Shown here piece by piece: positions 34,444 through 53,961 of a stretch of 64,000 nucleotides of DNA. The notes below the pieces were generated by a model. It did not search any database, was not told the DNA's origin, and saw only the letters and a list, made by a program, of their open reading frames with translations. How positions within the stretch are numbered: position 1 is the stretch's first letter; every line of letters starts with the position of its first letter. Location: the IMG/VR virus record IMGVR_UViG_3300010413_000011, positions 1 through 64,000 of that record. The stretch is one strand, 5' to 3'. The stretch is from a virus. The position numbers and the translations under genes were made by a program.

Positions 34444-35185
34444 TGATTAACCTTTGTGTTCTCGCGTCGAGTTCACCTAAATGTAGTCGCTGTTTGAAAA
34501 TGATATAATCGATTTGTCCAGGACTCGCTGTCCCGTCCTCGAGACAATCCAGAGCCTCAAGGTATTTTCCGTCATCACCTAACTCGAGATCGACAGACTC
34601 GCCGTATTTCAATTTTCGAATTTCATTTTCGATTTTGTCGATCGAAATTAATTGGTTTGGTAAAGGAAATCTACCAAAACTTTTGAATCGTTTGATGTGT
34701 AATCTGATGTAGTCAGCATAAGAAATCCCATGCTCGTCTGCGATCGCTGCCGCCTTGACTAAAAAGTGATATACTTTTGAGGAAGGAGTTATAGGTCTTA
34801 AATGTTTGTTACCCAGGTGTTGAGATCTGAGCAGAGTATAAATTCGATTAAAGTGGTCAACCTTAGATTCTTGACTAACCACCGGCTTCGATGTCACTTC
34901 GAATCTTGCCAAATTGTTTAAGCGGATGGCGACAATGGAGCCATCTCTTCTAATGAGACCAGACTTCCTCAAGGTCTTCATACACCGTTTGGCATCTCTT
35001 AGTTCAATATCTAAAGTACTCGCCCATTCGCTCGCCTTCATTGGGATTTTCGATACGAATCGATATCTCATATACATCGAAACATAGAAAAATCTTGCCT
35101 CCAAAGGTAGGTCAAGTGTGTTTAAAGAGACGACAACTCGTCGAGTTTCAGCTAATACTTTTTCAGATTTCATTGAGATCCTCAT
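34406..35185 (-). CDS. Winged-HTH protein, possible replication initiator or helicase loader
   Basis: ASEWASTLDI..AKRCMKTLRKSGLI wHTH-like segment; upstream of the primase-helicase. Confidence 0.45.
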   Translation of the reverse strand: MRISMKSEKVLAETRRVVVSLNTLDLPLEARFFYVSMYMRYRFVSKIPMKASEWASTLDIELRDAKRCMKTLRKSGLIRRDGSIVAIRLNNLARFEVTSKPVVSQESKVDHFNRIYTLLRSQHLGNKHLRPITPSSKVYHFLVKAAAIADEHGISYADYIRLHIKRFKSFGRFPLPNQLISIDKIENEIRKLKYGESVDLELGDDGKYLEALDCLEDGTASPGQIDYIIFKQRLHLGELDARTQRLINGKKKSRRFCKE

Positions 35186-35645
35186 ACGGAAAGACTACCT
35201 TGCCATCATTAGGACCTATTCGTTGGGAAAAATAAATGGGTCGATATAACGTCTGCCCTAGATCTCGGTAAAATATAAACGCGCCTAGAGATTTTACCGA
35301 CATGCCGCTAAAACAAGCACCCTGAAAAGTCAAACCAGTATCTAAAATATCGTCGACAAAAATACAGCGGCCAACCGGTCTATCTAATCTTATGTCGAGT
35401 TTAAGGAAGTGAGATAACATTACGGCGGGTATGAGACCGCCCCGGGGCTCGCCCCATAATTTCCAAAGATGGTTCGGAGACCAAACAGTTTCCTCGGGAA
35501 TAATTAGATGACCTTGAAGTTCTTTTTGTAGTCGTTCAAGTTGTCTAATATTTGTAGTAGCCAAAATTTTTTTAATATCGATTGCCATCAACTCGATGTA
35601 ATCTATATAATCCTTCCATTCAACTTTAATCGGATTCGAAGACAT
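35163..35645 (-). CDS. Type I phosphoribosyltransferase
   Basis: GEPRGGLIPAVMLSH, IFVDDILDTGLT PRPP-binding loop, VVFPYE. Confidence 0.85.
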   Translation of the reverse strand: MSSNPIKVEWKDYIDYIELMAIDIKKILATTNIRQLERLQKELQGHLIIPEETVWSPNHLWKLWGEPRGGLIPAVMLSHFLKLDIRLDRPVGRCIFVDDILDTGLTFQGACFSGMSVKSLGAFIFYRDLGQTLYRPIYFSQRIGPNDGKVVFPYEDLNEI

Positions 35646-37215: not shown

Positions 37216-37729
37216 CAAAGTAATAGACTTTATAGAAACTGATTTACCAAGGACCTACTATCCCGAAGGTGGGGTCTCTCCTGAACAATTACAACCGAAC
37301 GGAGTCGACTGTCGTTTATTTTTTGTAAGGAGAGTCGACCCGGATCGTATTATGATATTTCGTAAAAATGAGAAGGATGTACCAGAGCTGGAGATGGTCG
37401 AACCTATAATCCATAGGTCCTTTCATGAGCGCGACAAACAACACGCCTTTTTCAATTTGGAACCTGGGGCCTATAATTTTGAAATGGCCGAACGAATAAA
37501 AGTTCCTCAAGGTATTGCGGCAATGTTCTTTGGTCGGAGTACCCTTAACCGAAACGGAATACTCCTTTTGTCGTCGGTCTATGATACGGGTTATGACGGT
37601 AGAATAGGAGGGACGGCGTATGTCTGGCGGCGGATACAAATAGAAATGTTTGTTCGAGTCGGACAAATTGTTTGTTGGGAAGCTCACGAAACGAAGGAGT
37701 ATGACGGTCAATATGGCGACGGAAAGTAA
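37199..37729 (+). CDS. dut: Trimeric dUTPase (dCTP deaminase-like fold)
   Basis: QLQPNGVD, GRSTLNRNG and YDTGYDG; the deaminase catalytic Glu is not evident; RBS before ATG 37199. Confidence 0.8.
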   Translation: MILPGNKVIDFIETDLPRTYYPEGGVSPEQLQPNGVDCRLFFVRRVDPDRIMIFRKNEKDVPELEMVEPIIHRSFHERDKQHAFFNLEPGAYNFEMAERIKVPQGIAAMFFGRSTLNRNGILLLSSVYDTGYDGRIGGTAYVWRRIQIEMFVRVGQIVCWEAHETKEYDGQYGDGK

Positions 37730-40737: not shown

Positions 40738-41640
40738 ATGCCAAAGAAAAAGGAAAAAAAGAAGGGCGGTAAAAAGAGTCTTATTGAAGAGGTTCAAAAG
40801 ACTCTGAAGGAACAAAATCGCAAGAGTGCCGGAGCGATGTTCGGCGACACTTCCATTTGGACTCCGGGTAAAGGGACCAATAAAATTCGGATACTACCGA
40901 GTTGGAACCCAGACGAAACTCCGGTCTTCTACAAAGAAGTTGCCTACCATTACTCGGTAGGACCTGATGAGTCGATTGTCATGTGTCCTCAAAGGATGGC
41001 CGGTAAACGGTGCTTCATCTGTGAGCAGGTCAAGGAGCTAAAAAAGGCAAAAGGCAAAGGAGCGAAGAAGGCAAAGGCTATCATCGAGAAGGTGAGAGCA
41101 AAGGGAAGAATTCTCTACAACATCGTGGACCTCAACGACAAAAAGGCTGGGATTCAGGTCTTTATCTCTGGACCAAAGATTTTCAAGGAATTGTTATCGA
41201 TGGTCATTGATGAGGATATCGGAGACATCTCCGACCCGAAAGAGGGATTCGATATCAAAATCATCCGCGAAGGTGAAGGTCTCGACACCGAGTACAGGGT
41301 CCGGGCCGCTGCGAAGGCAACAGCAATCAAGAAAAAGGCTTGGCTAAAAGGCCTGAACGATCTCGACGCTCTGGCTGGTGATCTCCCGAGTTATGAGGAT
41401 ACCAAGGCGGCTTGGGAAGGCGAAGACGAAACGGACGACGAAGAGGATGACGACGACGAGGAAGCAGACGACGAAGAGGATGACGACGAAGACGAAGAGG
41501 ATGACGACGAAGACGAAGAGGACGAGGATGACGAAGACGAAGAGGACGAGGACGACGATGAAGAAGATGACGATGACGAGGAAGAAGAGGAGCGTCCGAA
41601 GAAAAGTAAAAAGAAAAAGAAGGGAAAGAAAAAGAAGTAA
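40738..41640 (+). CDS. gp32-like ssDNA-binding protein with long acidic tract and Lys-rich ends
   Basis: KIRILP, HY..CP..CFICE, DISDPKEGFDIKI.REG.GLDTEY. Confidence 0.85.
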   Translation: MPKKKEKKKGGKKSLIEEVQKTLKEQNRKSAGAMFGDTSIWTPGKGTNKIRILPSWNPDETPVFYKEVAYHYSVGPDESIVMCPQRMAGKRCFICEQVKELKKAKGKGAKKAKAIIEKVRAKGRILYNIVDLNDKKAGIQVFISGPKIFKELLSMVIDEDIGDISDPKEGFDIKIIREGEGLDTEYRVRAAAKATAIKKKAWLKGLNDLDALAGDLPSYEDTKAAWEGEDETDDEEDDDDEEADDEEDDDEDEEDDDEDEEDEDDEDEEDEDDDEEDDDDEEEEERPKKSKKKKKGKKKK

Positions 41641-41652
41641 CTGGTACTTGCC

Positions 41653-42570
41653 ATGATCTTAATTATCGACGGTAACAATGCGGCCTTCAGGGCTAATTCG
41701 GTTCTTACCATGAGTTGGAAGACCAAAAGGACAAGTGCCATTTTCGGAACTTTATCGATAGTTCGGTCAGTCATGAACAGAGTGGATCCTAGTAAAGTTA
41801 TCGTCGTATGGGACATCGGCGGTTCAAAATACCGAAAAAGATTGTTTCCTGAGTATAAAAAGAAACGAATCGAAAAAAGAGATGACGATGATTTCCAAAC
41901 TTTCATCGACCAAGTTCAAATACTCAGAGATCGAATCTTTCCAGTTCTAGGGATTACTCAAGCGGTAAAGTCTGGAGTCGAAGCGGATGATGTTATATAT
42001 CGTCTCGCAAAATACTACTCGGTTAAAAAGGAAAAAGTGATTATACTTTCGGGAGATACCGACTTGTATCAATTGGTGAGCAAACGAGTTTCAATAATCT
42101 CACCTAGTCGGAAACGAAACGATTTTATAACCAATAAAAACTTTACCCGGATTACTAAAGGATTGGATCAAGATCAATTTGTGTCATACAAAATGTTAGT
42201 CGGAGATCCTTCCGATGGTATCCCGGGCGTACCAGGTTTCGGTGACAAAACTTCTCGTGTGGCCTTGGGACACTATAAGTCGGCAGAGGAGGCGGTCGAG
42301 CATTATGACGAACTGGTTAAACTGATGCCTCGGATTGCCAGATATGTAACCAGTAAGAAGGCAGAGAGTATCGTTGACCGAAACCGAAAATTAATCGATT
42401 TAAGTATCTACAATCGACCGAAACGGGTAAAGGCTTCAACGAAATTATTAATTGAGTCTGAACTAAATGAACAGGAATTTCGAAAAATTTGTAAAGAGTT
42501 CGGGTTCGTTTATATACTATCTAATTTTATGGATTGGATTGAACCATTCAAAGAGTTGGACAGGGGGTGA
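41653..42570 (+). CDS. 5'-3' exonuclease/flap endonuclease (T4 RNase H-like)
   Basis: IIDGNN, YK..R, EADDVI, SGDTD, GDPSDGIPGVPGFGDKT. Confidence 0.92.
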   Translation: MILIIDGNNAAFRANSVLTMSWKTKRTSAIFGTLSIVRSVMNRVDPSKVIVVWDIGGSKYRKRLFPEYKKKRIEKRDDDDFQTFIDQVQILRDRIFPVLGITQAVKSGVEADDVIYRLAKYYSVKKEKVIILSGDTDLYQLVSKRVSIISPSRKRNDFITNKNFTRITKGLDQDQFVSYKMLVGDPSDGIPGVPGFGDKTSRVALGHYKSAEEAVEHYDELVKLMPRIARYVTSKKAESIVDRNRKLIDLSIYNRPKRVKASTKLLIESELNEQEFRKICKEFGFVYILSNFMDWIEPFKELDRG

Positions 42571-43550
42571 CCATGTATGGTTATCAAATTTATCTGACCC
42601 ACGGCTGTAATCTGCGGTGTCGGCAATGTGGTGTCTGGAGGGCCAAATCGATCGGTCGGGAAAAACAATGGACCGAATGGGCAGCTATCCTACCGACCAT
42701 GGTCCAGGTTTTCGAGAAAACATTTCATCGGAAACCAGCGTTCAAATTGATGGGAGGCGAACCAACAATTTATCCGGGTTTCGAAGAAGTTTGTAGAGCA
42801 ATTAAAACACTCGGTTGTAATATTTCTGTTCTGTCGAATGTTAGTAAAACCTGGCAGTGGGAAATGTTGACTCGAGTTTTGGGAAAAGGGGATTCAATTT
42901 TCGTTTCAATGGATTTCTTTCCGAATAGAAGGAAACAATATGAGATGAGATCCGATCCGGCAGAAGAGAAGGCTTTTGCTGCCCTCCATTTCATCGAGAC
43001 CTTTCCCGACAACCAAACCGATTTCGAGGTCGGCGTAAATATTACGGTATCTTCGGATACCTTGCCTAGATTATCTGGCCTTATTGATTGTTTGGTTCAG
43101 TTGAACGCTAAGATGAATATTTGTCTTCGGCAAGGCAGCGAACCGAATGAGGACGAACTCTACCACGTTCTTAGGGCACCGAATCGAACTGGCAATTTAA
43201 ACCAGGAGGAGGTCGACCAGTTAGTCAAAATTATGCTATCCGACTTATTGCCAGTTCCAGATCTTTTTCTCGGATCAAAGGAATACATTAGGATAATTCA
43301 GGTTCACGGAGCGAATAACGATTGGCATTGTAGAGATCAACTCCACCTTCCGTATATTTATTTGGATTGCGATGGTTCGGTAATGGCGTGTCCAGACGTC
43401 GCCTTACCAGATCCTCAGGTTTTACCTTTAGCGAGTCCGACTCCTTTTGTTTGGACCGAGAGGATGTTGAAGACCTATCGTGCCAAATGTTGTGGCTGTA
43501 CTATTTCGTCAGCGATGACCGATGTTGTCGCAGCACTCTGGGAGAAATAA
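42567..43550 (+). CDS. Radical SAM enzyme with SPASM/Twitch-like C-terminus
   Basis: LTHGCNLRCRQC, GGEP, C-terminal HC..LDCDGSVMAC..CCGC. Confidence 0.85.
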   Translation: MTMYGYQIYLTHGCNLRCRQCGVWRAKSIGREKQWTEWAAILPTMVQVFEKTFHRKPAFKLMGGEPTIYPGFEEVCRAIKTLGCNISVLSNVSKTWQWEMLTRVLGKGDSIFVSMDFFPNRRKQYEMRSDPAEEKAFAALHFIETFPDNQTDFEVGVNITVSSDTLPRLSGLIDCLVQLNAKMNICLRQGSEPNEDELYHVLRAPNRTGNLNQEEVDQLVKIMLSDLLPVPDLFLGSKEYIRIIQVHGANNDWHCRDQLHLPYIYLDCDGSVMACPDVALPDPQVLPLASPTPFVWTERMLKTYRAKCCGCTISSAMTDVVAALWEK

Positions 43551-43551
43551 A

Positions 43552-45462
43552 ATGATACTTTCTGCTCCTAAAATTGCCCATATTGGCTTGGACAATCGAG
43601 TTTACCAAACTCATTGCCTTCATCCGAAAAATTTTTTACAATTTTTGGGAGGGCGAGGATTGAACAGTCATCTGACTTTTCAAAACCGCTCTATTAATTT
43701 CCCGATGGTTTTTATTACTCCAGGGTTGTTGACTGGAACTCTGTGTCCATCGTCGTCTCGCTGTACTATTGGTACTAATATATCACCCTCTTTAGGAAGA
43801 TGGGCTGATGGGAATCTCGGAGGATTTTTTGGAGCTGAACTAAGAAGAGCAGGTTGGAATCAAATTTGGTTAGAAGGTATTTCCGAAAAACCTATTTTAA
43901 TATATATTGAAAACCAAAAAATAAAAAGTGTTGACGCTGGTAATCTTTGGGGACTCGGAGTTCATGACACAACTGAGAGAATCCGAGAAGAGTTTGGGCC
44001 GGACGCTCAGTCTCTTGTAATCGGGCCGGCCGGAGAAACCCAGGTCGCGTACGCCTGCGTTATGTCGGGCGATAGAGCGGCAGGAGGAGGCGGTATTGGT
44101 GCCGTCCTCGGGAAAATGAAAGTCAAGGCGATCGTTGTTCGGGGAACTAGAGGTCTTGAACCTGCCCAACCCGAGGAGTTTATGGACGCTTGTCTGGCGG
44201 CTCATAAACAAGTTCGATCGAATCCTTTGTTCGGTGAGTTTTCACAATCTGGTACTTCAATTATTACATCCATTTATAAAGGAGTCAAAGCACTACCGGT
44301 TAATTATTGGGATAAAGGAGATTCGCCACACGCTTACAAATTCGAACCAGGAAATTTGAAGACGAAAGTTGTAAAAAGTCGAGCTTGCTATGGTTGTTCG
44401 ATTCATTGCTCTCATGAACTTACTTTCGGGTTCGAAGGGGTAGAGTACGAGGCGTTGAACGGGCTCGGTCTTAAAATTGGAATCACCGATCTAGACGAAT
44501 GCCTTCGTTTGATAAAATGGTTCAACAACCTGGGTCTCGATGTAGTCCAGACCTCTGGCGTTCTAGGTATGTTGATGAAAATGACCGAAGATGGCTTCGC
44601 GATGAATATGGATCGAATTAAATTTGGAGATGCTGAGGCTATTTGGACGCGAGTTGCTAGTTGGATGGATAGTAGAAGAAGAGATCTCAGTTTTTGGAAT
44701 GGTCTTGACGCCGGGTTCGAAAGATATTCTGAGATATTTCCTCCAGGTCCTGACGGAAATAAGGGCGATGTTCTTAAACGATTCCGTCGAAAGTATTCGG
44801 TCGATATTAAAAATTCAATGCCACCCAGCCTAGACTTCAGGGTTCCAGAAAACTTTGCGGCTACTATTGCTTGTATGACGGCTACTCGAGGCGCTGACCA
44901 TCTTAGAAGTTTGGCACCGATTGAGGCCTACGGTCAGTGGTACGGGAGAGAGGATCTCGAGGCGATGGCTATTCATTTTGGAATACCATCTGATATTATG
45001 AAAGAATGGTTGGACCTGGACGGGTTCGATCCTAAAATAAATTCGAAAAGTATAAGAGGAAAGGTTGCTATCATTTCTTACTTTCAAGATCAAAATGCTG
45101 TGACCGATGCCCTGGGTCTTTGTCGATTCGCCTCAAGTTGGAGAATGGGAGTCGGCCTCGAGTTGATGGCGGAGATGGTTTCGACTTTTCTTGGTATAGA
45201 TATGAACTGGTGTGGCCTGCGAGCAGTGGGCCAGAGGATAACCGTCTTAGAAAGATATCTGAACTCGAAAGTGTACGGCATGAATAAGTTCAGTGATTAT
45301 CCTCCCGAGAAATTTTTCGTAGAGCCTTTGAATGGGAGGAATCAACTCTCACATCATGACGTAAGATCAGCCCGCGATCAGTTCTATGAGTATAACGGAT
45401 ATGACGAGCAGGGATGTCCGACACCGGATACTTTTGAAAAATTAGGATTGGTTGTCAAATGA
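43552..45462 (+). CDS. aor: Aldehyde:ferredoxin oxidoreductase family (W/Mo-pterin) large subunit
   Basis: GGRG, SSR..SP, IGPAGE, GAVLG..KAIVVRG, CYGCSIHC, EYE, GLD, RGADH, DALGLCRF, GYDEQGCPT. Confidence 0.9.
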   Translation: MILSAPKIAHIGLDNRVYQTHCLHPKNFLQFLGGRGLNSHLTFQNRSINFPMVFITPGLLTGTLCPSSSRCTIGTNISPSLGRWADGNLGGFFGAELRRAGWNQIWLEGISEKPILIYIENQKIKSVDAGNLWGLGVHDTTERIREEFGPDAQSLVIGPAGETQVAYACVMSGDRAAGGGGIGAVLGKMKVKAIVVRGTRGLEPAQPEEFMDACLAAHKQVRSNPLFGEFSQSGTSIITSIYKGVKALPVNYWDKGDSPHAYKFEPGNLKTKVVKSRACYGCSIHCSHELTFGFEGVEYEALNGLGLKIGITDLDECLRLIKWFNNLGLDVVQTSGVLGMLMKMTEDGFAMNMDRIKFGDAEAIWTRVASWMDSRRRDLSFWNGLDAGFERYSEIFPPGPDGNKGDVLKRFRRKYSVDIKNSMPPSLDFRVPENFAATIACMTATRGADHLRSLAPIEAYGQWYGREDLEAMAIHFGIPSDIMKEWLDLDGFDPKINSKSIRGKVAIISYFQDQNAVTDALGLCRFASSWRMGVGLELMAEMVSTFLGIDMNWCGLRAVGQRITVLERYLNSKVYGMNKFSDYPPEKFFVEPLNGRNQLSHHDVRSARDQFYEYNGYDEQGCPTPDTFEKLGLVVK

Positions 45463-46079
45463 GAAAAGAACGAATTAAAAGTCTATGGAGTCATCTTACA
45501 TCGACACCGGTCGAAATCGTTCGAGGTTTTTCTCGTGCCGTTGTTTTGGTGACAAGGCAGTTAATCCTTTTAGAGAATCCTGTAGAAAGGATCTTACCGA
45601 AGTCAGCGCTCCTCTGTTCTTTTCAGCCTAAAAAACTTTCATACGAAAAGGCTGACTCATACCTGGGTTTCCTCCTAACCAAAAGGATTAGAGTCGATTA
45701 TACTAAATGTACGGGCTGTAAGGCATGCGAGTTGGCGTGCTCTTTAAACCATTACGGACGCTGCGAACCCGAGGAATCGAGAATCAGAATTGACCGACAA
45801 TGTAAAAAGTCGGCAGAGTTCTTTCCTTTCGTTTGTCAACACTGTACGATGCCCGAATGCGTTGTGGTCTGCCCGTCTGGAGCTTGTACGAGAACAAAAG
45901 AAGGTCTCGTAGTCGTAGACCCGGAACTTTGTATTGGTTGTAAACTTTGTATAATCGTTTGTCCGCTGAGTTCAGCGGCATGGAATTGGAGATTAGGTCA
46001 ATCGATGAGATGCGATCTTTGCGAAGGTGAACCGGTCTGTGTCAAGGTTTGCTCGACTAAGGCCATCGATTTTCATTGA
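45459..46079 (+). CDS. 4Fe-4S multicluster electron-transfer subunit (AOR partner)
   Basis: CTGCKACELAC, CQHC..PECVVVCP, CIGCKLCIIVCP, CDLC..PVCVKVC; ATGA overlap with the AOR stop. Confidence 0.9.
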   Translation: MRKERIKSLWSHLTSTPVEIVRGFSRAVVLVTRQLILLENPVERILPKSALLCSFQPKKLSYEKADSYLGFLLTKRIRVDYTKCTGCKACELACSLNHYGRCEPEESRIRIDRQCKKSAEFFPFVCQHCTMPECVVVCPSGACTRTKEGLVVVDPELCIGCKLCIIVCPLSSAAWNWRLGQSMRCDLCEGEPVCVKVCSTKAIDFH

Positions 46080-46090
46080 GGAGATAGATC

Positions 46091-46351
46091 ATGGTAGAAA
46101 CAGAGCAACAAAAAGTCTATGAGGCTCTAGTTGGTTTAGGATATATTTACGGAGTGAATTGCGCACTAGAGCATATAGGCATTGACCATCGAATAATGCC
46201 AGAACAGGATGACGAGAAAGAAGGAATACTCTATCCTTGGTACGATAAAGGACCATCGGGACAAATGGAAAAGAAATTAAAACAATTGGCAAGTAATTTG
46301 GTTCAAGATGGAATTTCAGTAGCTGACGTGGAACAATGGGGTTCGTTTTGA
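46091..46351 (+). CDS. Hypothetical protein
   Basis: GAGGAG RBS; in the operon. Confidence 0.6.
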   Translation: MVETEQQKVYEALVGLGYIYGVNCALEHIGIDHRIMPEQDDEKEGILYPWYDKGPSGQMEKKLKQLASNLVQDGISVADVEQWGSF

Positions 46352-46379: not shown

Positions 46380-47957
46380 ATGAAATGGAATGAAGGAATC
46401 TTTAAGGCAAGAGAATTTCCAGACGAGCCGTTGAGTATGTTTTCTTGCCTAGCGGAATTGTGTAATTCGCAACCATCGGTCCCCTGGAATTATGCTGGTC
46501 GAATGATTCGAGTAACCGAAAAAGTTTCGATCGACTACGAGATAATGAAATTCGTTCGCGCTTCGGCTGACGATCCCTCTGGATTTAGCCCCGGGTTCAT
46601 ATTCGAGAATGTTTCGAGTGAGATGGCACCAGATCCGAAAACGACTCGATATCCAATCTCTGTTGTCGCTGGAATGTATGGAACCGAGGCACGAGTAAGT
46701 CGTATATTGGATTGGTGTTTAGGAACCAAAGAAAAATTCGACTTAAGTACTCCGGCCTGGCGAAAATATCAGCGAGCGTTGAACAGAACGTCACATGGCG
46801 TGGTTCGGATTTTTCCCGAAAGAGACGACTTAGGTCATGTATACGACATTCGATACGAACTCCAAGACCTTCCGATTTGTCTTCACAACGAAAGAGACGG
46901 AGGTCGATTCATCACCGGAGGTGTCCAGATCGTCTGGGATCCGGAATTCGAATGTTATGTCTCTGGTATTCACCGAATGAAGGTCATCGATAAAAATACT
47001 CTCGGGTGTTTGGCTACCGGCGAAAGAAGGATCGGTAGAGCGATAATGAAATGGCATGAACGAGGATTTAAGGCACCTGTTATTACATTAATAGGAGCCG
47101 CACCTTGCGACGTTTTCGCGTCTCAAGCCAAAGTACCTCATAACACGGATAAGTATGCTGTCGCAGATCGCTTCACACCCGGAAACGAGAAGAGAGATTT
47201 TTGTGGTTGGACTCCTTCCAAACATGCGAAATACGCTCCCGACCACTTACATATTATCCCTACAGATTCTGAAATTGTTATTTTGGGATTAGTTCCATTA
47301 GGCGAACCGAACAAACCAAACCTTATTAACGACAACCCGTTTGGGGAATTTCCTGGTACCTATTCCTTTTCGAATACTTCCGCGGCTTGGAGAGTAGAAG
47401 TAGAATATGTTATGACCAGATCCGACGCACCGATCTATCAAACCATGACCACCGGATTCCCTGTGCTCGAGGATCATATTCTTTGTGGCACGGCGAATGT
47501 TCCTTACCTCTTCGAAATTCTTCAAAGAGCCTGTTCAGAAGTGGTCGATATTAGCTTGGGAAAAGAAGGCAACTATGTTTTCGATGCTCACGTTTCCATT
47601 AAAAAGAGAATGTCTGGCGAAGCGCGCAATGTTATTTTAGCAGCGCTCTCGACCGTCACTATAAAAAGTGTTTGGATATACGACGACGACATCGACGTTC
47701 ATAATCCTCGTGACCGGCAGTTCGCATGGAACACGAGATACCAGCCTGCGACCGATACAATTATTATTGGCCATCCTTTGGTTGGTTCGAGTCTCGATCC
47801 ATCTTGTCCTGTCTTTCGGCACACGACTAAGGTAGGTTTTGACTGTACCAAACCTTTAGGTCAGGAGGATCGATACAAAAAGGCTTTGTGGCCAAAGGAT
47901 GAAATAGAAATCTATTCGAAAAAAGTACTCGATTTAATCGATAAGTGGGAGGACTAA
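46380..47957 (+). CDS. ubiD: UbiD-family (prFMN-dependent) reversible decarboxylase
   Basis: DLP..HNERDGGRFIT, GIHRM, PFGEFPGTY, DDDIDV..FAWNTR.QP..D, LDPS, KVGFDCTKP. Confidence 0.9.
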   Translation: MKWNEGIFKAREFPDEPLSMFSCLAELCNSQPSVPWNYAGRMIRVTEKVSIDYEIMKFVRASADDPSGFSPGFIFENVSSEMAPDPKTTRYPISVVAGMYGTEARVSRILDWCLGTKEKFDLSTPAWRKYQRALNRTSHGVVRIFPERDDLGHVYDIRYELQDLPICLHNERDGGRFITGGVQIVWDPEFECYVSGIHRMKVIDKNTLGCLATGERRIGRAIMKWHERGFKAPVITLIGAAPCDVFASQAKVPHNTDKYAVADRFTPGNEKRDFCGWTPSKHAKYAPDHLHIIPTDSEIVILGLVPLGEPNKPNLINDNPFGEFPGTYSFSNTSAAWRVEVEYVMTRSDAPIYQTMTTGFPVLEDHILCGTANVPYLFEILQRACSEVVDISLGKEGNYVFDAHVSIKKRMSGEARNVILAALSTVTIKSVWIYDDDIDVHNPRDRQFAWNTRYQPATDTIIIGHPLVGSSLDPSCPVFRHTTKVGFDCTKPLGQEDRYKKALWPKDEIEIYSKKVLDLIDKWED

Positions 47958-47958
47958 A

Positions 47959-48363
47959 ATGGCAAAGAAGAAAAGTTTAAACAATAGGGAAAGGGAAATC
48001 GGACGTAAGTTAGGAGTTACCCGGAGGGCTGAACACGACTATGCGACAGAGTTTGATCCTTTCGAACAAGGATACCGAGAGTCCATGGAACACGAGTCTG
48101 ACGAATTCAAATACGTTCTGCCCGGATGTTTCGGTAGGATGAATTTTTGGCCTCCTCGAGAAGAGTTGAAGGCCGTGTCTGGCATGGACGAAGGTTTCGT
48201 AATTCAAAAGGGAGTTGCTCAGTATTTGGAAGGTGAGAGACAAGCCGGGATTGTCAAAAAGTGTTTAGGTTGTTCTCAATACCAGCGATGTGCTTTGGCT
48301 ACCGTAGTTGGTAAAACTTCCTCAATCCGAGAGAAAACTAAACCTACTCCCGTAGACGAATAA
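47959..48363 (+). CDS. Hypothetical Cys-containing protein
   Basis: GGGAGG RBS; PGCFG...CLGC....C motif. Confidence 0.6.
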   Translation: MAKKKSLNNREREIGRKLGVTRRAEHDYATEFDPFEQGYRESMEHESDEFKYVLPGCFGRMNFWPPREELKAVSGMDEGFVIQKGVAQYLEGERQAGIVKKCLGCSQYQRCALATVVGKTSSIREKTKPTPVDE

Positions 48364-48383: not shown

Positions 48384-49349
48384 ATGAAAATCGAATTAAT
48401 GCGCCACACGGTTGAACCAGAAGAGCTGTTGGAAGAACTGGTAGAGCTTAGTTACCGGACGCAACACTTCCCGAAACACCCTGCTCTTGTCGAATTTAAG
48501 AGTGGTCGTCAAGTTCCTTTGACCCAATTGAAAAATCTTACCATGATTCCGAAACCCGGTACTGTGATCCCTGGGTTTGAAAAAGACGACGTAGAAGTTG
48601 TTAAGGTGATCCCCAGGACAGCAGAGAAGGCAGTCAGGTTCGCCATCGCCATCGGACATTTCGCTTTGTTCCGTCAGGTAACTGTAACCTGGAGAGTCGA
48701 ACTCAGCAGGAAATCTGTTCTTCATTATTTGAGATACCAACATACAGCAGAGAACATGGTGTCACAAAAATACCTCGACCAAGGTCAGTTCGAATTTATA
48801 ATGCCGACAACCCGAGATTATCCTCCCGAGGAACTCATGGTCTATAAAGAAGCAATGCAAACGATTCAGTCATATTATGAACGCCTTCGGAATTTCGGCT
48901 GGGACCCGGAGGATGCTCGACTGGTTTACCCGAACTCTGCTCTTCAAAAATTTATCTTCACCGCTAATATGGAAACCATGCGTCGGCTATTTGATATCCT
49001 ATGCGACGAGGACTACGTCGATGAGATGCATCGGTTCGGTTTGGCCATGTTGGCTACCATTAAAAAAGTTATGCCAGCGTTCGTATATGATTACAGATTC
49101 TATTCGAGGAATGACGACGGACATATTTATGCGAAGCGTCGGAGAAGAAAAGGTGGAGACAACGTTAAAGTGAATTGGACTGATCCGAATTGGATGGAGG
49201 AAGATGAGAAACGAGAAACCGACGAAGTTTGTCGACTCCAAGAAAAAATACCTAATGAGTTAATAAATTTTGCGAATGAAGGTCAACGATTCTTCACTGT
49301 AGTTCCTGAAAACGAAATTCCAGAACCGGAACATTGGGAAACAGAATGA
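48384..49349 (+). CDS. ThyX-fold flavoprotein with non-canonical active-site motifs
   Basis: GH......T, SR, RYQ-X7-SQKY (canonical RHR-X7-S.RY), EDARLVYPN, TAN. Confidence 0.75.
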   Translation: MKIELMRHTVEPEELLEELVELSYRTQHFPKHPALVEFKSGRQVPLTQLKNLTMIPKPGTVIPGFEKDDVEVVKVIPRTAEKAVRFAIAIGHFALFRQVTVTWRVELSRKSVLHYLRYQHTAENMVSQKYLDQGQFEFIMPTTRDYPPEELMVYKEAMQTIQSYYERLRNFGWDPEDARLVYPNSALQKFIFTANMETMRRLFDILCDEDYVDEMHRFGLAMLATIKKVMPAFVYDYRFYSRNDDGHIYAKRRRRKGGDNVKVNWTDPNWMEEDEKRETDEVCRLQEKIPNELINFANEGQRFFTVVPENEIPEPEHWETE

Positions 49350-49525
49350 AAGTAGTCGCAACACAACTAAAACTCGAGAACATAGAAATTCTCCACAATG
49401 CGAAGAAGGGAGATACGCTCTCCCTAAAAATAATTAATACGCAGGAAGTGCCACTTGATGAAGACGGACTCGACCCAGACAGCTGTCTCTTGGTTCTCTT
49501 CGGACGATTGGGAACCGGGAACTAA
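49346..49525 (+). CDS. Small hypothetical protein
   Basis: ATGA coupling to the ThyX-like stop; overlaps the start of the next gene. Confidence 0.4.
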   Translation: MKVVATQLKLENIEILHNAKKGDTLSLKIINTQEVPLDEDGLDPDSCLLVLFGRLGTGN

Positions 49526-50597
49526 CGATAGAATAGGTTTTGAAAAAGTTTGCAATAAAGGAGTGCGCCGAGACACTTACAACGGTTTATACTTTAAGGG
49601 TGGATCAGGCGCCTCTGAATTTTTCAAAACCGAGCCAGATCAAAAGCAGATCAAAATTCATCGAACCAAGATCTTCTTAACCACTACTCGAGCACAACAC
49701 ATGTGGGGCCTTCTCGACGCGAACTACCCTTACATTTTAATGTCGTTTTGGTACTACAAGACCGTGACAAATGTTTTCGGTTCCCTCCGGAATGCCTTTG
49801 CTGCTCGAGATAAAAACATCGACGATTTCGAAATTATGGTAGATAGCGGCTCGTACAGTGCTACGGTCAAAGGTACCTCGGTAGATCTGGATACTTATAT
49901 TGAATGGCTCTACCACGAAGAGGATAATGTCGATTGGTATGTTAACCTCGATACTCAGTTCAAACCAGAAGAGGGACTTCGAAACTGGGCGATCCTTTGT
50001 GCGAACGGATTACATGACGCCATTCATGTCCACCATAGACCAGAGCCTTGGAAGTACTGGGATATTATAGCAGATCATTGTGGAGAGTTTGGAGGTCTTA
50101 GTCCGATGCCTCGAGCAAAGAGAGGCGTTAAACTCGAGTACTTTACCAAAGCTCATTCAATGCACCCACAGAAGAAACTTCATTGGTTTGGCTCTGTCGA
50201 TAAAGAGTTGGCCAAAATGTTCGATGTATATTCTATGGACTGCTCGAGTGCTGACGCGGTCGCTTATCGCGGGATTGTTTGGACTCCTTGGGGAGCGGTT
50301 AACCTGGGTTTTAACCCGAACTACAGTAATCACATTGATCGCTTACCTCTTGACATCCGCTCTAAGGTCACCGAATGGTTTATGACACATGGTTTTGAGC
50401 TTCATGATTTAAGGCCCGGGAGACCCTATATGCCTTCGCATAGATTCAGAATTTATTTCAACGCACTGGGTTATCTCGCGTCCATGGTCGAGATTGAAAA
50501 AGAGAAAAGTTTAATTGAGTTACCAGATCCAGAATGGATTCGGTCTTCGGAAATTTATACTAATTATGAAAGTGAGTTACCAAAAGGATGGAAGTGA
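49458..50597 (+). CDS. dpdA: DpdA/TGT-like DNA base-exchange transglycosylase (paralogue 1)
   Basis: LMSFWY, IMVDSGSYS, YVNLD, HVHH, GLS, LHWFG, YSMDCSS. Confidence 0.75.
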   Translation: MKTDSTQTAVSWFSSDDWEPGTNDRIGFEKVCNKGVRRDTYNGLYFKGGSGASEFFKTEPDQKQIKIHRTKIFLTTTRAQHMWGLLDANYPYILMSFWYYKTVTNVFGSLRNAFAARDKNIDDFEIMVDSGSYSATVKGTSVDLDTYIEWLYHEEDNVDWYVNLDTQFKPEEGLRNWAILCANGLHDAIHVHHRPEPWKYWDIIADHCGEFGGLSPMPRAKRGVKLEYFTKAHSMHPQKKLHWFGSVDKELAKMFDVYSMDCSSADAVAYRGIVWTPWGAVNLGFNPNYSNHIDRLPLDIRSKVTEWFMTHGFELHDLRPGRPYMPSHRFRIYFNALGYLASMVEIEKEKSLIELPDPEWIRSSEIYTNYESELPKGWK

Positions 50598-50824
50598 TGG
50601 CAACCTCGTATTTTAGAGGTCACAAAGGTTGGTACGACAATATTGAAAAAGTATGGAAGTATTTCGATACCAATCTTCCTATCGATCCTCGTCGCCCTTG
50701 TGTCCGATGTGGTAAAGAACCCACTCCCGAAGGTCATGACGCGTGTTTGGGACGGCTAGACGGTGCGTGGTCAGCCTGTTGTGGTCATGGAGTAATAGAA
50801 CCATATTTAAAAATTACATTATGA
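50597..50824 (+). CDS. Small Cys/His-rich phage protein
   Basis: FRGH..RPCVRCG..GHDACLG..ACCGHG. Confidence 0.6.
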   Translation: MATSYFRGHKGWYDNIEKVWKYFDTNLPIDPRRPCVRCGKEPTPEGHDACLGRLDGAWSACCGHGVIEPYLKITL

Positions 50825-51843
50825 GAAACCCTACAACATTTAAAGTCGGAACCGGTCGAGTCATGGTCCCGCACGATCACAAAAAGACTCGACTTTTTCT
50901 TGCCGTTAGTAACATGACAAGTTTTAGACCGATCGTCCGCTATACCTATCCATATCTTTTGATGAGTTATGCCTTTCTGAGAAGGTGGTGTCGGAGTTGG
51001 CGCTGTAACTCGATGAAGGAACTCTTTGCTTTATATGGTGGTGACATTCGAGACTTCAAAATAATGATTGACAGCGGTTCCTATACAGTCACGACTAAAG
51101 GAATTAATATAACAATTGACGACTATATAGAATTCCTATATGAAGAATGGGGTTCCTATAATTGGTATGTCAATTTGGATCTCCAATTTAAACCCGAAGT
51201 TGGCCTCGAGAACTATTTAATAATGTGCGCCAACGGCCTTCACGACGCAATTCATGTTCATCACCGACCGGAACCCTGGAAGTATTGGGATATGATTTGT
51301 AACGATATGGGTCCGTATGCCGGGCTCAGTCCCATGCCCAGGGCTTCAATGACGATCAAGAGAGAATATTTTTTGAAGGCCCATTCAATGCATCCCGATG
51401 TAAAAGTTCATTGGTTTGGGTCTGGCGCAATAACATTAATCAAACAGTTCGGTCCTTACTCTGTAGATGTTTCCTCTTATACTCAGATGGCTGGAATGGG
51501 TCATTGCTATTTTCCTTTTGGTACTTTCTACTTTGGTAGAAATACTTCGATTAAAAATTATTATGGAAACCTCGATAGTTCAATTCGAAAACAAATAAGA
51601 AAGTATCTCAAAACCGTTCCCCATTTTGTCGAAGATCGATTTATTAAACCCGAAGATCTGTTGTCACCAGTTCAAGATGAAACGGAAGCTCGTACCGCAG
51701 TCAATGTATGGTACTTCATGACTCATCTTCAATCGGCAATAAACGAAGAAAGAAATCTTTTGTCTCTTGAGGATGGTGACTTAATTCGCTACTCACCGTG
51801 GTATCACGGATGGGAAGATAAACCAATAGAGAAATGGAGTTGA
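50821..51843 (+). CDS. dpdA: DpdA/TGT-like DNA base-exchange transglycosylase (paralogue 2)
   Basis: LMSYAF, IMIDSGSYT, YVNLD, HVHH, GLS, VHWFG, YSVDVSSY; long identical blocks shared with paralogue 1. Confidence 0.75.
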   Translation: MRNPTTFKVGTGRVMVPHDHKKTRLFLAVSNMTSFRPIVRYTYPYLLMSYAFLRRWCRSWRCNSMKELFALYGGDIRDFKIMIDSGSYTVTTKGINITIDDYIEFLYEEWGSYNWYVNLDLQFKPEVGLENYLIMCANGLHDAIHVHHRPEPWKYWDMICNDMGPYAGLSPMPRASMTIKREYFLKAHSMHPDVKVHWFGSGAITLIKQFGPYSVDVSSYTQMAGMGHCYFPFGTFYFGRNTSIKNYYGNLDSSIRKQIRKYLKTVPHFVEDRFIKPEDLLSPVQDETEARTAVNVWYFMTHLQSAINEERNLLSLEDGDLIRYSPWYHGWEDKPIEKWS

Positions 51844-51846
51844 AAA

Positions 51847-53961
51847 ATGACAGAATTGAATCCAAACGTTGTAACGTTATTGAAAAAAAGATACCTAAAA
51901 ATAAAAGAGGACGGATCACAAGAAACACCCGACGAGATGTTCGAGCGCGTTGCCAAACACGTCGGTGGCGCTGTATCCGTTGGAGCTTGGGAAGTGTTTA
52001 AATCAGTCCTCTGCGAATGGGATAGCGCCACAACTTATTTCGAAGAAGTAATAAAAAGTTTACATTTTATGCCTAGCACCCCTTGTTTGATGAATGCCGG
52101 TTCTCCAAACGGTCAACTATCTGCCTGTTTTGTTTTGCCGGTCAAGGACACCTTGTTAGGACCTGGGTCGATCATGGGAACTCTCCAAGATATGGTAGCC
52201 GTTCATCGATCTGGCGGAGGGACCGGATTCGATTTCTCTAACACAAGGCCGAAAGGAGCAACAGTTTGGTCGACCGGAGGGAAGACGGATGGACCTCTGG
52301 CATGGATTTCAATTTACGATGAGGCGTCTGAAGCTGTCAAACAAGGCGGTAAACGACATGGTGCGAATATGGGAATCCTAAGTATCCACCATCCCGACAT
52401 ACTCAGTTTTATAAAAGCTAAACAAGAAAGTGGCAAGTACGAAAATTTCAATTTTAGCGTTGCCGTTACAGACGAGTTTATGGACATGCTAAAAGAAAAT
52501 CCTGGTGAAAACTGGTCTGCGTTTTTCGATAACGGGGATGAATTGATTCGCGAGGAGTTCAATGTTGGTGAACTCTGGAATTCACTTTGTCAATCGGCGT
52601 GGGAGAGCGGTGAACCAGGAGTTTTCTTCATTGATGTCGTTAACGAATTTAATCCTTTTGAGGAAAAAATAACTTCGACCAATCCGTGTGGTGAACAACC
52701 TTTGTTACCGTATGAGTCTTGTAATTTAGGTCATATTAATTTGTCGAAGTTATATGATCCTAATGGCGAAGACTTTATTAATCATGAGTCATTCAGAAAA
52801 CTTTGTTGGTTGGCAGTTTTATTTCTTGACTCTTGTATTGACATCAATTGTTATCCAATAAAACAAATTGAGACCGCTACCTTCAACACAAGAAAAATAG
52901 GAGTTGGAGTTTTAGGCTTTGCCGATTTATTATTGAAGGCAGGAGTACCTTACTCTTCTGATCGAGCTGTCGAAATTGCAGATGTGATTGCTTCGTCTCT
53001 TACCAGATATACAGATCAAGCATCAACAGTTCTCGGTAAAGCTCTAGGTAACTACCCTGCCGTCGTTATGTGTAAAGATGTAAGTCGAAGAAAACACTTT
53101 CCGAAACGGCGAAACCTTACAACAACTACGATCGCTCCAACGGGCATTACTTCTTGGATATGTGGTGCTTCGTCAGCTATTGAACCGGTGTTCGCTTGGG
53201 AAACAGACAAATATGTTCTCGAGCAGACTATGAAAGAGGTTCATCCTATCTATAAAAAATGGCGTGAAGAGAATCCTCCTAATACAGTAAATTTACCAGA
53301 ATATTTTGAAGTCGCTCACGACATACCGGCCGAGCAACATGTTAAGGTCCAAGCGGCTTTTCAAAAACATATTCACTCGGGAGTATCGAAAACAATTAAT
53401 CTCCCCGAGTCGGCAACGCCCGAAGACATTTCAAACATTTATAAATTTGCTTGGGAATTAGGATGTAAGGGAGTTACGATCTACCGAGATATGAGCAGAG
53501 ACAATCAGGTACTTGCTAAAAAAGGTTCTCGGATTAAACAAGTCGACGTAGAACGACCGGATTCAATACCAGGAGAAATTCATAAAATTCAGGTAGACAT
53601 TGGTAAGGAGAAATTATCTAACGTTTATTGTGCGGTCGGTTTCAAAGAACAGGGTGTACCATTCGAGGTTTTCATAATTGCTCATCCAAAAGGAATGAAA
53701 GATGTTCAATTTATGGAAACTCTTACTCGATGCGTTTCTCTCTGCCTAAGATATAAAGTTCCCCTGCCCTCCCTTATTAAACAGTTGAAAAAAGTAGAGG
53801 GTACAGCCCTGGGTTCTCTACCGACTGAAATTGCTCGAGTCCTCGAGTTGTATACAGAGAACCCGACCTGGGTTTGTCCAGAATGTAATTGTCGACAACC
53901 GATCGAAGGAATCACTCGGTGTCGAACTTGTAGGAATTGTAATCACCAAGAGTGCGGATAA
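51847..53961 (+). CDS. nrdJ: Class II (B12-dependent) ribonucleotide reductase
   Basis: [57 protein letters not shown]; C-terminal extension with Zn ribbon; no small subunit gene nearby. Confidence 0.92.

What the first reader, a model, noticed from the sequence alone, without database searches (positions are those of the whole stretch)
46380..47957. UbiD decarboxylase in a phage DNA-metabolism operon, without UbiX
Seen: a full-length UbiD with the Arg of GIHRM and the PFGE Glu. The usual EGPFGE reads DNPFGE, and no ubiX is in the window. Established: UbiD needs prenylated FMN made by UbiX, and some members act on heteroaromatic acids. Inference: it may remove or add a carboxyl on a base such as 7-carboxy-7-deazaguanine or a 5-carboxypyrimidine, using host prFMN.
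Basis: partly seen in the sequence, partly recalled or inferred. Interest (0 to 1): 0.72.

Follow-up and report, generated by a model that had tools for sequence, protein, structure and literature searches.

The report
Phage UbiD-AOR nucleobase-tailoring cassette
A sediment phage carries an unusual UbiD decarboxylase, its own UbiX cofactor synthase, a tungsten-type aldehyde oxidoreductase and two DNA base-swapping enzymes, which together look like an undescribed route for making a modified DNA base.

Summary
The ORF at 46380-47957 is a real, full-length but divergent UbiD-family enzyme. The catalytic Arg (GIHRM) and Glu (PFGE) are invariant, and DNPFGE is as reported. "Without UbiX" holds only for the window: the same 92.7 kb phage genome encodes a bona fide UbiX 41 kb downstream, so host prFMN is not required. 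The gene is no stray. AFOR, UbiD and an atypical ThyX-like gene recur in the same order, inside the replication module, in at least six distantly related metagenomic phage loci. One locus has UbiX in the module, and five carry a true transaminase plus a SLOG protein. In this phage the cassette is joined to a polyferredoxin, a radical-SAM enzyme, two DpdA/TGT-fold transglycosylases and, 11 kb upstream, a purine phosphoribosyltransferase. All phage-context UbiDs form one clade inside a monophyletic subfamily in which Gly/Val, Arg and Lys replace the Asn/His/Glu Mn/K ligand triad. Best reading: a prFMN-dependent (de)carboxylase working in series with the AOR on a nucleobase acid, most likely 7-carboxy-7-deazaguanine to 7-deazaguanine. 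TubF and xanthine-8-carboxylate decarboxylase are precedents. The substrate and direction are inferred, not shown. The scan had already noted the sister cassette in another genome (e1-2927970).

The parts
46380..47957 (+). UbiD-family (de)carboxylase, 525 aa, variant V194/R217/K258 cofactor-site triad
   Evidence: Pfam/NCBIfam; PDB; triad and catalytic residues; phage-context clade
43522..45462 (+). Aldehyde:ferredoxin oxidoreductase (tungsten/molybdo-pterin AOR family), 646 aa
   Evidence: AFOR_N 8e-50, AFOR_C 3e-65; best PDB match P. furiosus AOR 1aor at 2e-62; conserved upstream of UbiD in L004, L007, L008, L009
45459..46079 (+). Poly-[4Fe-4S] ferredoxin subunit (DmsB/PadI-like by NCBIfam), 206 aa; its start overlaps the AOR stop by 4 nt
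   Evidence: Fer4_11 and related hits; NCBIfam PadI/DmsB-type hits
42567..43550 (+). Radical SAM enzyme, SPASM/twitch-like, 327 aa; overlaps the AOR start by 29 nt; role uncertain
   Evidence: PF04055; only weak generic hits, including the W-cofactor oxidoreductase maturase TIGR04317 at 33 bits; atlas look-alikes are viral rSAM and AslB-like clusters
46091..46351 (+). 86-aa ORF of unknown function between ferredoxin and UbiD
   Evidence: No Pfam, NCBIfam or PHROG hit
47959..48363 (+). 134-aa orphan ORF starting two bases after the UbiD ORF end (one base between them); has a C-x2-C-x5-C motif
   Evidence: No family hit; only homologue is P0273 (79% identity) on the contig that holds the 78%-identical UbiD
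48384..49349 (+). Atypical ThyX-like flavoenzyme, 321 aa; follows UbiD in all related phage loci
   Evidence: PF02511 3e-23 but TIGR02170 53 bits, below the 87.9 cut-off; RHR-x7-S-x-RY reads R-Y-x...S-Q-K-Y, invariant in 7 sequences, with a conserved ~75-aa N-terminal extension
49455..50597 (+). DpdA/TGT-like transglycosylase, paralogue a
   Evidence: phrog_887 1.4e-15; 42% identical to paralogue b, E 1e-81
50743..51843 (+). DpdA/TGT-like transglycosylase, paralogue b
   Evidence: phrog_887 5.8e-21; AF2 model matches TGT/ArcTGT structures, prob 1.0; tblastn hits annotated phage DpdAs; invariant D110, D146, D242
35163..35645 (-). Purine (xanthine/guanine-type) phosphoribosyltransferase-like, 160 aa
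   Evidence: PRPP loop CIFVDDILDTGLT and RGGLIPA; PDB 1vdm purine PRTase E 0.003; atlas PRTase clusters score 0.93, XGPRT structure TM 0.69/0.79

Best explanation
The gene encodes a working prFMN-dependent UbiD (de)carboxylase whose cofactor is made by the phage's own UbiX (genome 89082-89699). It is one step of a phage cassette conserved with a tungsten-type aldehyde:ferredoxin oxidoreductase. The two enzymes handle the same heteroaromatic carbon: R-CHO to R-COOH (AOR, electrons passed to the polyferredoxin), then R-COOH to R-H plus CO2 (UbiD). In related phages a transaminase extends the series to R-CH2NH2. R is most likely the 7-position of 7-deazaguanine, so the series would be preQ1, 7-formyl-7-deazaguanine, CDG and 7-deazaguanine. 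The product would then be placed in DNA by the two adjacent DpdA-like transglycosylases, or turned into a nucleotide by the PRTase. Shown: family, fold, catalytic residues, UbiX in the genome, cassette conservation, DpdA fold, PRTase motifs. Inferred: that the cassette is one pathway, the substrate, the direction, and that Arg217 and Lys258 replace the Mn/K bridge to the prFMN phosphate.
For: UbiD identity and intact R-Xn-(E/D)-X4-E network: with motif function from PMC5818171. UbiX scores above its curated cut-off in the same genome, and a UbiX sits inside the module in L007. AFOR, UbiD and ThyX-like keep the same order within PolA-gp32...RNR-RecA in L004, L007, L008 and L009, and partly in L001, L005 and L006, at only about 29% PolA identity. 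In L004, L005, L007, L008 and L009 a true class-V transaminase (1iug 1e-29, AEP transaminase 1e-14, invariant PLP Lys) and a SLOG protein sit between AOR and UbiD. That gives three adjacent enzymes with chained chemistry. Two DpdA/TGT-fold genes follow the ThyX-like gene, and a purine PRTase lies 11 kb upstream. Precedents: TubF with the TubE PRTase on CDG, xanthine-8-carboxylate decarboxylase, and dDG in phage DNA with an unvalidated decarboxylase. The nearest solved relatives act on heteroaromatic or aromatic acids: HmfF, InD, VdcC. Tight gene spacing and overlaps, and junctions confirmed in other samples.
Against: No FolE, QueD, QueE or QueC is in the 92.7 kb held, so any 7-deazaguanine must come from the host or from the missing ~32% of the genome. 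The held parts of the relatives' contigs show no DpdA, so the cassette does not need an adjacent DpdA. This phage has no transaminase or SLOG gene, so the source of an aldehyde here is unexplained. Conserved gene order among related phages can reflect shared descent rather than shared function. The canonical Mn/K ligands are all substituted, and characterised UbiDs need those ions. The ThyX-like neighbour would fit a pyrimidine substrate as well. No biochemical or expression data exist.
Confidence: 0.4

Rival explanations
1. Same cassette, reverse direction: UbiD carboxylates a base C-H with CO2, the AOR reduces the acid to the aldehyde using low-potential ferredoxin, and in relatives the transaminase makes an aminomethyl base. 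This would be a natural counterpart of the engineered UbiD + carboxylic-acid-reductase cascade, yielding a formyl or aminomethyl base for DNA.
For: UbiD enzymes are reversible (PMC7976604). The AOR has its own polyferredoxin. The habitat is anoxic sediment. Cationic aminomethyl bases such as preQ1 are known phage DNA modifications. The starting R-H could be an abundant base or nucleotide, which removes the need for preQ0 genes.
Against: From established thermodynamics, both carboxylation and acid reduction (about -580 mV) are uphill, and no ATP-coupled enzyme is seen in the cassette. With R = 7-deazaguanine there is no known source of the unsubstituted base.
Confidence: 0.2
2. The substrate is a pyrimidine C5 series (uracil or cytosine, 5-carboxy, 5-formyl, 5-aminomethyl) at base or dNMP level, coupled to the atypical ThyX-like enzyme. 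The DpdA genes would then be a separate system that uses host preQ0.
For: The ThyX-like gene follows UbiD in all seven related loci and is non-canonical. A dCTP-deaminase/dUTPase-like gene and RNR are in the module. The relatives' loci lack DpdA.
Against: No UbiD acting on a pyrimidine acid turned up in the papers read; the known nucleobase precedents are purine or deazapurine. The oxidative direction would only regenerate uracil. The PRTase looks purine-type. DpdA-family enzymes exchange guanine analogues.
Confidence: 0.15
3. UbiD and the AOR are auxiliary metabolic genes for host aromatic acid/aldehyde metabolism or for generating reduced ferredoxin (for RNR, ThyX or rSAM), and do not modify DNA bases.
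For: In cells, UbiD-AOR adjacency occurs in a catabolic-type cluster (L086). The closest solved relatives act on furan, phenolic and indole acids.
Against: The cassette's position is embedded and conserved inside the replication/nucleotide module across divergent phages. It is linked to SLOG, DpdA and PRTase genes. The phage UbiDs form their own clade, distinct from the cellular ones.
Confidence: 0.12
4. The protein no longer uses prFMN. Loss of the Asn/His/Glu ligands marks a UbiD-fold protein with another cofactor, or a non-catalytic role.
For: All three ligand positions are replaced. It scores below the TIGR00148 cut-off.
Against: The replacements are a strictly covarying Arg and Lys, conserved across a 72-member clade, which looks like selection for a charged phosphate-binding site. 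The catalytic Arg and Glu are invariant. UbiX is kept in this phage and within the module of L007.
Confidence: 0.08

Closest known systems
TubF, the UbiD-family decarboxylase of the tubercidin pathway (Streptomyces tubercidicus), with the TubE CDG-PRPP phosphoribosyltransferase (PMC6112128)
   Same: A UbiD-family enzyme proposed to remove the 7-carboxyl from a 7-carboxy-7-deazaguanine scaffold, and it co-occurs with a small purine-type PRTase.
   Different: TubF is cellular, belongs to a secondary-metabolite cluster with FolE/QueD/QueE homologues and has no AOR. Its sequence could not be compared here. The phage lacks CDG synthesis genes and adds AOR, ferredoxin and DpdA.
Phage 7-deazaguanine DNA-modification systems (DpdA1-4 with FolE/QueD/QueE/QueC; dDG in Cellulophaga phage phiST with the proposed DpdL decarboxylase; PMC10516641)
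   Same: Phage-encoded TGT-fold transglycosylases sit next to base-tailoring enzymes, and 7-deazaguanine needs a CDG decarboxylase that has not been validated.
   Different: No preQ0/CDG genes are present. The candidate decarboxylase is a UbiD rather than the QueD-like DpdL. There are two DpdA paralogues. AOR, ferredoxin and UbiX have not been reported in such systems (literature searches).
HmfF (2,5-furandicarboxylate decarboxylase, PDB 6h6v) and InD (indole-3-carboxylate decarboxylase, 7p9q)
   Same: They are the best sequence and structure matches (phmmer E 5e-26 and 4e-25; Foldseek TM 0.64/0.75 for HmfF), and they are prFMN enzymes acting on heteroaromatic acids.
   Different: Identity is only about 21-24%. 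Both have the canonical Asn/His/Glu triad at the aligned positions, where the phage enzyme has Val/Arg/Lys.
Xanthine-8-carboxylate decarboxylase XCDC with its UbiX (Cupriavidus sp. LA-1, PMC12391406)
   Same: A prFMN-dependent UbiD that decarboxylates a purine carboxylate, showing that nucleobase acids are UbiD substrates.
   Different: XCDC is catabolic and cellular, and it needs K+ and Mn2+.
Cellular AOR complexes with a ferredoxin-type subunit (P. furiosus AOR 1aor; Aromatoleum AOR 8c0z)
   Same: The AOR catalytic subunit is encoded next to a poly-[4Fe-4S] subunit, and the enzyme interconverts acid and aldehyde.
   Different: Here it is phage-encoded and paired with UbiD and nucleotide-metabolism genes. 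No FAD subunit is present.

Membership tests
UbiD family (prFMN-dependent decarboxylases) | Three-domain architecture UbiD_N / UbiD Rift-related / UbiD_C and the UbiD fold | tested here: met
   All three Pfam domains score above their cut-offs. Foldseek top hits are all UbiD enzymes with prob 1.0.
UbiD family (prFMN-dependent decarboxylases) | Catalytic R-Xn-E-X4-(E/D) network (AnFdc1 R173, E277, E282; PMC5818171) | tested here: met
   R199 and E323 are invariant in 120 of 120 homologues. D318 is in the majority state (D 93, E 27). Glu-to-Asp substitutions retain activity in Fdc1.
UbiD family (prFMN-dependent decarboxylases) | Mn2+/K+ bridge to the prFMN phosphate through conserved Asn, His and Glu | tested here: not met
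   The positions aligned to Asn/His/Glu of HmfF and InD are V194, R217 and K258. They covary strictly across homologues. The ion requirement comes from PMC7976604 and PMC12391406; the AnFdc1 residue numbers N168/H191/E233 are from my memory.
UbiD family (prFMN-dependent decarboxylases) | A UbiX flavin prenyltransferase partner is available | tested here: met
   UbiX at genome 89082-89699 scores 136.2 bits on TIGR00421 against a cut-off of 108.9. A UbiX lies within the module in L007.
UbiD family (prFMN-dependent decarboxylases) | Curated NCBIfam subfamily score (TIGR00148) | tested here: not met
   197.4 bits against a cut-off of 244.85.
   87 bits against 788, and 123 bits against 496. The tree places it in a phage-context clade.
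TubF-like CDG(-nucleotide) decarboxylase | Sequence kinship with TubF, and activity on a 7-carboxy-7-deazaguanine scaffold | not testable with these tools
   No tool could fetch the TubF sequence (AVW83014), and activity needs an assay.
TubF-like CDG(-nucleotide) decarboxylase | Co-occurrence with CDG synthesis genes (FolE, QueD, QueE) and a CDG PRTase | tested here: inconclusive
   A PRTase-like gene is present. FolE, QueD and QueE are absent from the 92.7 kb held, which is about 68% of the genome.
Phage 7-deazaguanine DNA-modification system | A DpdA (TGT-fold DNA transglycosylase) | tested here: met
   Two paralogues match phrog_887 at 1e-15 and 6e-21 and have the TGT fold with prob 1.0. 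They hit annotated phage DpdAs and keep conserved Asp residues. Pfam TGT itself finds nothing.
Phage 7-deazaguanine DNA-modification system | preQ0 pathway genes (FolE, QueD, QueE, QueC) in the phage | tested here: not met
   No match at E <= 1 in the held genome.

The most novel reading that the evidence does not exclude
A lineage of sediment phages encodes a self-sufficient prFMN system (UbiX plus a UbiD subfamily that binds the cofactor through Arg/Lys instead of Mn2+/K+) coupled to a tungsten aldehyde oxidoreductase. This forms a previously unknown nucleobase-tailoring pathway. It would either trim host 7-deazaguanines (preQ1 to formyl to CDG to 7-deazaguanine), giving the missing route to dDG, or build formyl/aminomethyl bases from CO2. 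The product would be written into DNA by a DpdA pair.
Probability: 0.3. Interest if true: 0.9.

Novelty: new variant of a known kind. Interest (0 to 1): 0.8.

Why it matters
My literature searches found no report of UbiD/UbiX or tungsten-type AOR enzymes as phage genes or in DNA modification. If the cassette tailors a 7-deazaguanine, it offers a testable candidate for the unresolved CDG-to-7-deazaguanine step behind dDG genomes, where DpdL was not validated. It would also show phages borrowing anaerobic aromatic-acid chemistry to evade restriction. Separately, the Arg/Lys-for-Asn/His/Glu subfamily would be a UbiD variant that may bind prFMN without metal ions. That is of interest to people using UbiDs for decarboxylation and CO2 fixation.

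Tried and rejected
- Four IMG/VR scans, with UbiD, the UbiD alignment, the ThyX-like alignment and the DpdA-like alignment, found no relatives.
- INPHARED has no genuine phage with a related UbiD; the hits are bacterial or contaminant records.
- The records behind L004-L009 are not held, so they could not be searched for DpdA.
- Pfam TGT finds nothing in the genome, and phmmer of DpdA-a against PDB finds nothing.
- The idea that the relatives' Aminotran_5 protein is a cysteine desulfurase was rejected: its best PDB matches are transaminases.
- The rSAM as QueE was rejected as unsupported: only a generic rSAM-core match to a QueE-like PHROG (3.5e-6) and no TIGR03365 match.
- The SLOG protein and the DHO_dh-like ORF gave no informative PDB hits by sequence.
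- L072 (Micromonosporaceae) was considered as a TubF proxy and rejected: distant branch, NSE triad.
- The Payne 2015 paper with the AnFdc1 metal ligands is not held.
- No RNA holder was listed for the cassette.
- `complex prediction` was not used, because no binding claim is made.
Full report
**Observation.** The stretch 46380-47957 (+) is a single ORF of 525 aa, with an AAGGAG Shine-Dalgarno sequence 7 nt upstream. It matches all three UbiD Pfam domains (4e-28, 3e-21, 1e-5) and aligns end to end with TIGR00148. Its score there is 197 bits, below the 244.85 cut-off. It falls far below the equivalog cut-offs for UbiD proper, the MqnL-type menaquinone decarboxylase and VdcC. No PHROG matches it.

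The best solved relatives by sequence are HmfF (6h6v, 5e-26), indole-3-carboxylate decarboxylase InD (7p9q, 4e-25), VdcC (7ae4) and E. coli UbiD. An AlphaFold model (pLDDT 62, pTM 0.71) matches HmfF best (Foldseek 1e-23, TM 0.64/0.75), followed by the other UbiD structures.

**It is a phage.** The window is 1-64000 of a 92.7 kb IMG/VR virus record estimated at 68% complete. It has portal, MuF-like and XkdF-protease genes and a replication module. That module holds a primase-helicase, a UDG-PolA fusion, a gp32-like SSB, a 5'-3' exonuclease, RNR, RecA and Mre11/Rad50-like genes.

The cassette sequence recurs almost word for word in marine-sediment, estuary and mangrove metagenomes from five studies, though two of the samples may be the source. 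Contigs from four other samples bridge Fdx-u86-UbiD, UbiD-u134-ThyX-like, ThyX-like-DpdA-DpdA and DpdA-RNR at about 100% identity. The arrangement is therefore not an assembly artefact.

**UbiX.** The window has none, but a search of the whole record found a Flavoprotein-family ORF at 89082-89699 (+) (2e-37). It scores 136.2 bits on TIGR00421 (UbiX family flavin prenyltransferase, cut-off 108.9) and 152 bits on NF004685. The phage therefore encodes its own prFMN synthase 41 kb from UbiD. In the related locus L007, a UbiX homologue sits inside the module between PolA and gp32. The title's "without UbiX" and the inference "using host prFMN" do not hold.

**Neighbourhood.** The genes are on one strand, tightly spaced or overlapping:

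| Coordinates | Gene | Evidence |
|---|---|---|
| 42567-43550 | SPASM/twitch-like radical SAM | |
| 43522-45462 | AOR-family aldehyde:ferredoxin oxidoreductase; best PDB match is the P. furiosus tungsten AOR, 2e-62 | |
| 45459-46079 | poly-[4Fe-4S] ferredoxin | |
| 46091-46351 | 86-aa ORF, unknown | |
| 46380-47957 | UbiD | |
| 47959-48363 | 134-aa orphan; sole homologue lies beside the 78%-identical UbiD on another contig | |
| 48384-49349 | ThyX-like | |
| 49455-50597 and 50743-51843 | two paralogous ORFs, 42% identical, E 1e-81 | |
| 51847-53961 | RNR | |

Following an unchecked lead from earlier scan notes, I tested the paralogous pair:
- Both match phrog_887, "queuine tRNA-ribosyltransferase", at 1.4e-15 and 5.8e-21.
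- A profile of the pair and three homologues reaches 1,523 representatives at E <= 1e-10.
- The AF2 model (pLDDT 72, pTM 0.75) hits only TGT and ArcTGT structures at probability 1.0.
- tblastn finds annotated phage DpdAs, such as Streptococcus virus MS1 (1e-13) and Cellulophaga phiSM (5e-8).
- D110, D146 and D242 are invariant in the wider family.

They are divergent DpdA-like transglycosylases; Pfam TGT itself does not detect them.

Eleven kb upstream, a 160-aa ORF (35163-35645, minus strand) carries a textbook PRPP loop (CIFVDDILDTGLT) and an RGGLIPA motif. It matches the purine PRTase 1vdm (E 0.003). In the atlas its structure resembles xanthine-guanine PRTases at TM 0.69/0.79.

**Conservation.** The nearest UbiD homologue is 78% identical, and the next are 35-41%. 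Metagenome loci recovered with the clade alignment show the same order in several phage contigs whose PolA is only about 29% identical:
- L004: PolA, gp32, AOR, then an intervening stretch, UbiD, ThyX-like, RNR, RecA.
- L007 and L008: PolA, (UbiX), gp32, AOR, intervening stretch, UbiD, ThyX-like, RNR.
- L009: AOR, intervening stretch, UbiD, ThyX-like.
- L001, L005 and L006: UbiD, ThyX-like.

In L004, L005, L007, L008 and L009 the space between AOR and UbiD holds two conserved genes. L006, which begins just upstream of its UbiD, shows only the SLOG gene.
- One is a class-V PLP enzyme. It is a genuine transaminase: 1iug 1.4e-29, AGT/serine-pyruvate aminotransferases about 1e-22, 2-aminoethylphosphonate:pyruvate transaminase 1e-14, with an invariant S-Q-K PLP lysine.
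- The other is a SLOG/YpsA-like protein of about 180 aa, a fold associated with nucleotide binding.

This phage has neither gene anywhere in its 92.7 kb. It has the rSAM, the ferredoxin, u86, u134 and the DpdA pair instead.

No cellular genome holds a close relative. The best are 34% identical (Binatia, Caldarchaeum), then Thorarchaeota at about 29%. The only cellular locus with an AOR near a UbiD (L086) looks like an anaerobic aromatic-catabolism cluster and has canonical UbiDs.

**Active site.** The catalytic network defined in Fdc1 as R-Xn-E-X4-(E/D), in which Glu-to-Asp substitutions retain activity (PMC5818171), is intact. R199 and E323 are invariant in 120 homologues, and position 318 is Asp in 93 and Glu in 27.

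The three positions that align with the Asn, His and Glu of HmfF and InD are V194, R217 and K258. I recall these as the Mn2+/K+ ligands N168, H191 and E233 of AnFdc1, and the spacing from the catalytic Arg fits. Across 120 homologues the three columns covary with no mixed cases: 56 are Asn/His/Glu and 64 are (Gly/Val/Gln/Leu)/Arg/Lys.

In a 209-sequence tree, the x/Arg/Lys sequences form one clade of 72 (support 99), sister to canonical enzymes. Within it, a 41-member clade (support 99) contains all eight UbiDs with known phage context. Two of its members are labelled as Planctomycetota MAG proteins on 89 kb and 111 kb contigs, which is phage-genome size.

Characterised UbiDs bind prFMN through a Mn2+/K+ network with the phosphate and need both ions (PMC7976604; PMC12391406). 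Strict replacement by two basic residues, together with retention of UbiX, suggests direct, metal-independent phosphate binding. That is an inference. I found no paper describing it.

**ThyX-like gene.** It scores 53 bits on the thyX equivalog, against a cut-off of 87.9. Its PDB matches are only 1e-8. The ThyX signature RHR-x7-S-x-RY reads R-Y-x...S-Q-K-Y, invariant in seven phage sequences. One Arg of the N-x-R motif is Glu in five of the seven. All share a conserved N-terminal extension of about 75 aa. It may still be a thymidylate synthase, but it is not a canonical one.

**Interpretation.**
- *One pathway.* In the relatives, three adjacent enzymes carry out chemically consecutive reactions on one carbon: R-H/R-COOH (UbiD), R-COOH/R-CHO (AOR) and R-CHO/R-CH2NH2 (transaminase). 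I take this as the strongest argument that UbiD and the AOR work in one pathway.
- *Nucleobase substrate.* The conserved position in the nucleotide/replication module, the SLOG protein, and in this phage the DpdA pair and purine PRTase all point to a nucleobase.
- *7-deazaguanine series.* If R is the 7-position of 7-deazaguanine, the four compounds are 7-deazaguanine, CDG, 7-formyl-7-deazaguanine and preQ1. Three of these are already known in phage DNA (PMC10516641).
- *Precedents.* A UbiD-family enzyme, TubF, is proposed to decarboxylate a CDG nucleotide made by the PRTase TubE (PMC6112128). A UbiD also decarboxylates xanthine-8-carboxylate. The CDG decarboxylase proposed for dDG phages, DpdL, was not validated.
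- *Direction.* From general thermodynamics, the amine to aldehyde to acid to C-H direction is downhill. The reverse needs very low potential and high CO2, and no ATP-coupling enzyme is present. I therefore favour decarboxylation.
- *Aldehyde source here.* In this phage the rSAM, whose look-alikes include AslB-type maturases and which overlaps the AOR start, could replace the transaminase as the aldehyde-forming step. That is speculation. It could equally mature the phage's sulfatase-family protein at 61609-62679.

**Weaknesses.** No FolE, QueD, QueE or QueC is in the held genome. The held parts of the relatives show no DpdA. Shared descent could explain the conserved gene order. The pyrimidine series and the CO2-fixing direction remain open. 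Nothing has been tested biochemically.

I put about 0.7 on [quoted passage not shown] and about 0.4 on the specific 7-deazaguanine/decarboxylation reading.

**Prior notes.** Earlier scan notes on this genome (e1-5994320, -324, -323, -340, -321) gave the DpdA and ThyX leads, which I tested. I found the UbiX independently, before reading them. A follow-up on another genome (e1-2927970) describes the sister AOR-transaminase-SLOG-UbiD operon and links it to DpdA3 phages. It agrees with my reading, but it is not independent evidence, and I could not verify its DpdA3 claim.

Noticed in passing
window 46380-47957 and homologues P0001-P0120, L001-L097: Besides Asn/His/Glu and x/Arg/Lys, a third cofactor-site triad, Asn/Asp/Glu, occurs in 57 of 209 UbiD relatives. 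The genome-derived distant relatives are mainly from Thorarchaeota and Alphaproteobacteria.
   Followed up: partly
window 48384-49349: The ThyX-like enzyme has substituted signature motifs (R-Y-x...S-Q-K-Y) and a conserved ~75-aa N-terminal extension, shared by seven phage loci. It may not be a standard thymidylate synthase.
   Followed up: partly
window 35163-35645 (-): A small purine PRTase-like gene. One structural look-alike cluster in the atlas is a viral GTP cyclohydrolase I-PRTase fusion, hinting at a link between this PRTase type and deazapurine pathways.
   Followed up: partly
window 42567-43550 and 61609-62679: A SPASM-type rSAM with AslB/anSME-like look-alikes, plus a sulfatase-family gene 18 kb away. 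This may be a maturase-substrate pair unrelated to UbiD.
   Followed up: no
window 37650-40313 and genome 90309-90974: PolA carries an N-terminal UDG-superfamily domain. A second, stand-alone UDG-superfamily gene lies next to UbiX and resembles that N-terminal domain.
   Followed up: no
window 36400-37215: A 271-aa ORF with a weak DHO_dh-like (flavin TIM-barrel) hit is conserved upstream of PolA in L001 and L004. No PDB match by sequence.
   Followed up: partly
window 41401-41867: The acidic low-complexity tail of the gp32-like SSB attracts many unrelated metagenome contigs (depth spike, loose ends, small length variants).
   Followed up: no
window 12804-15185 and 55882-56814: Two family-2 glycosyltransferases, one a 793-aa double-domain protein among the structural genes. 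Possible further DNA or capsid glycosylation.
   Followed up: no
L086:1273-13551: A deltaproteobacterial MAG cluster with two canonical UbiDs, a 2-oxoacid:ferredoxin oxidoreductase, an AOR with an FAD subunit and a Mo-oxidoreductase. It is a cellular UbiD-AOR pairing, probably catabolic.
   Followed up: partly
window 47959-48363: The orphan 134-aa protein after UbiD has a C-x2-C-x5-C motif plus one earlier Cys, so it may bind a metal or an Fe-S cluster. Relatives carry an unrelated conserved 85-93-aa protein at the same position.
   Followed up: partly
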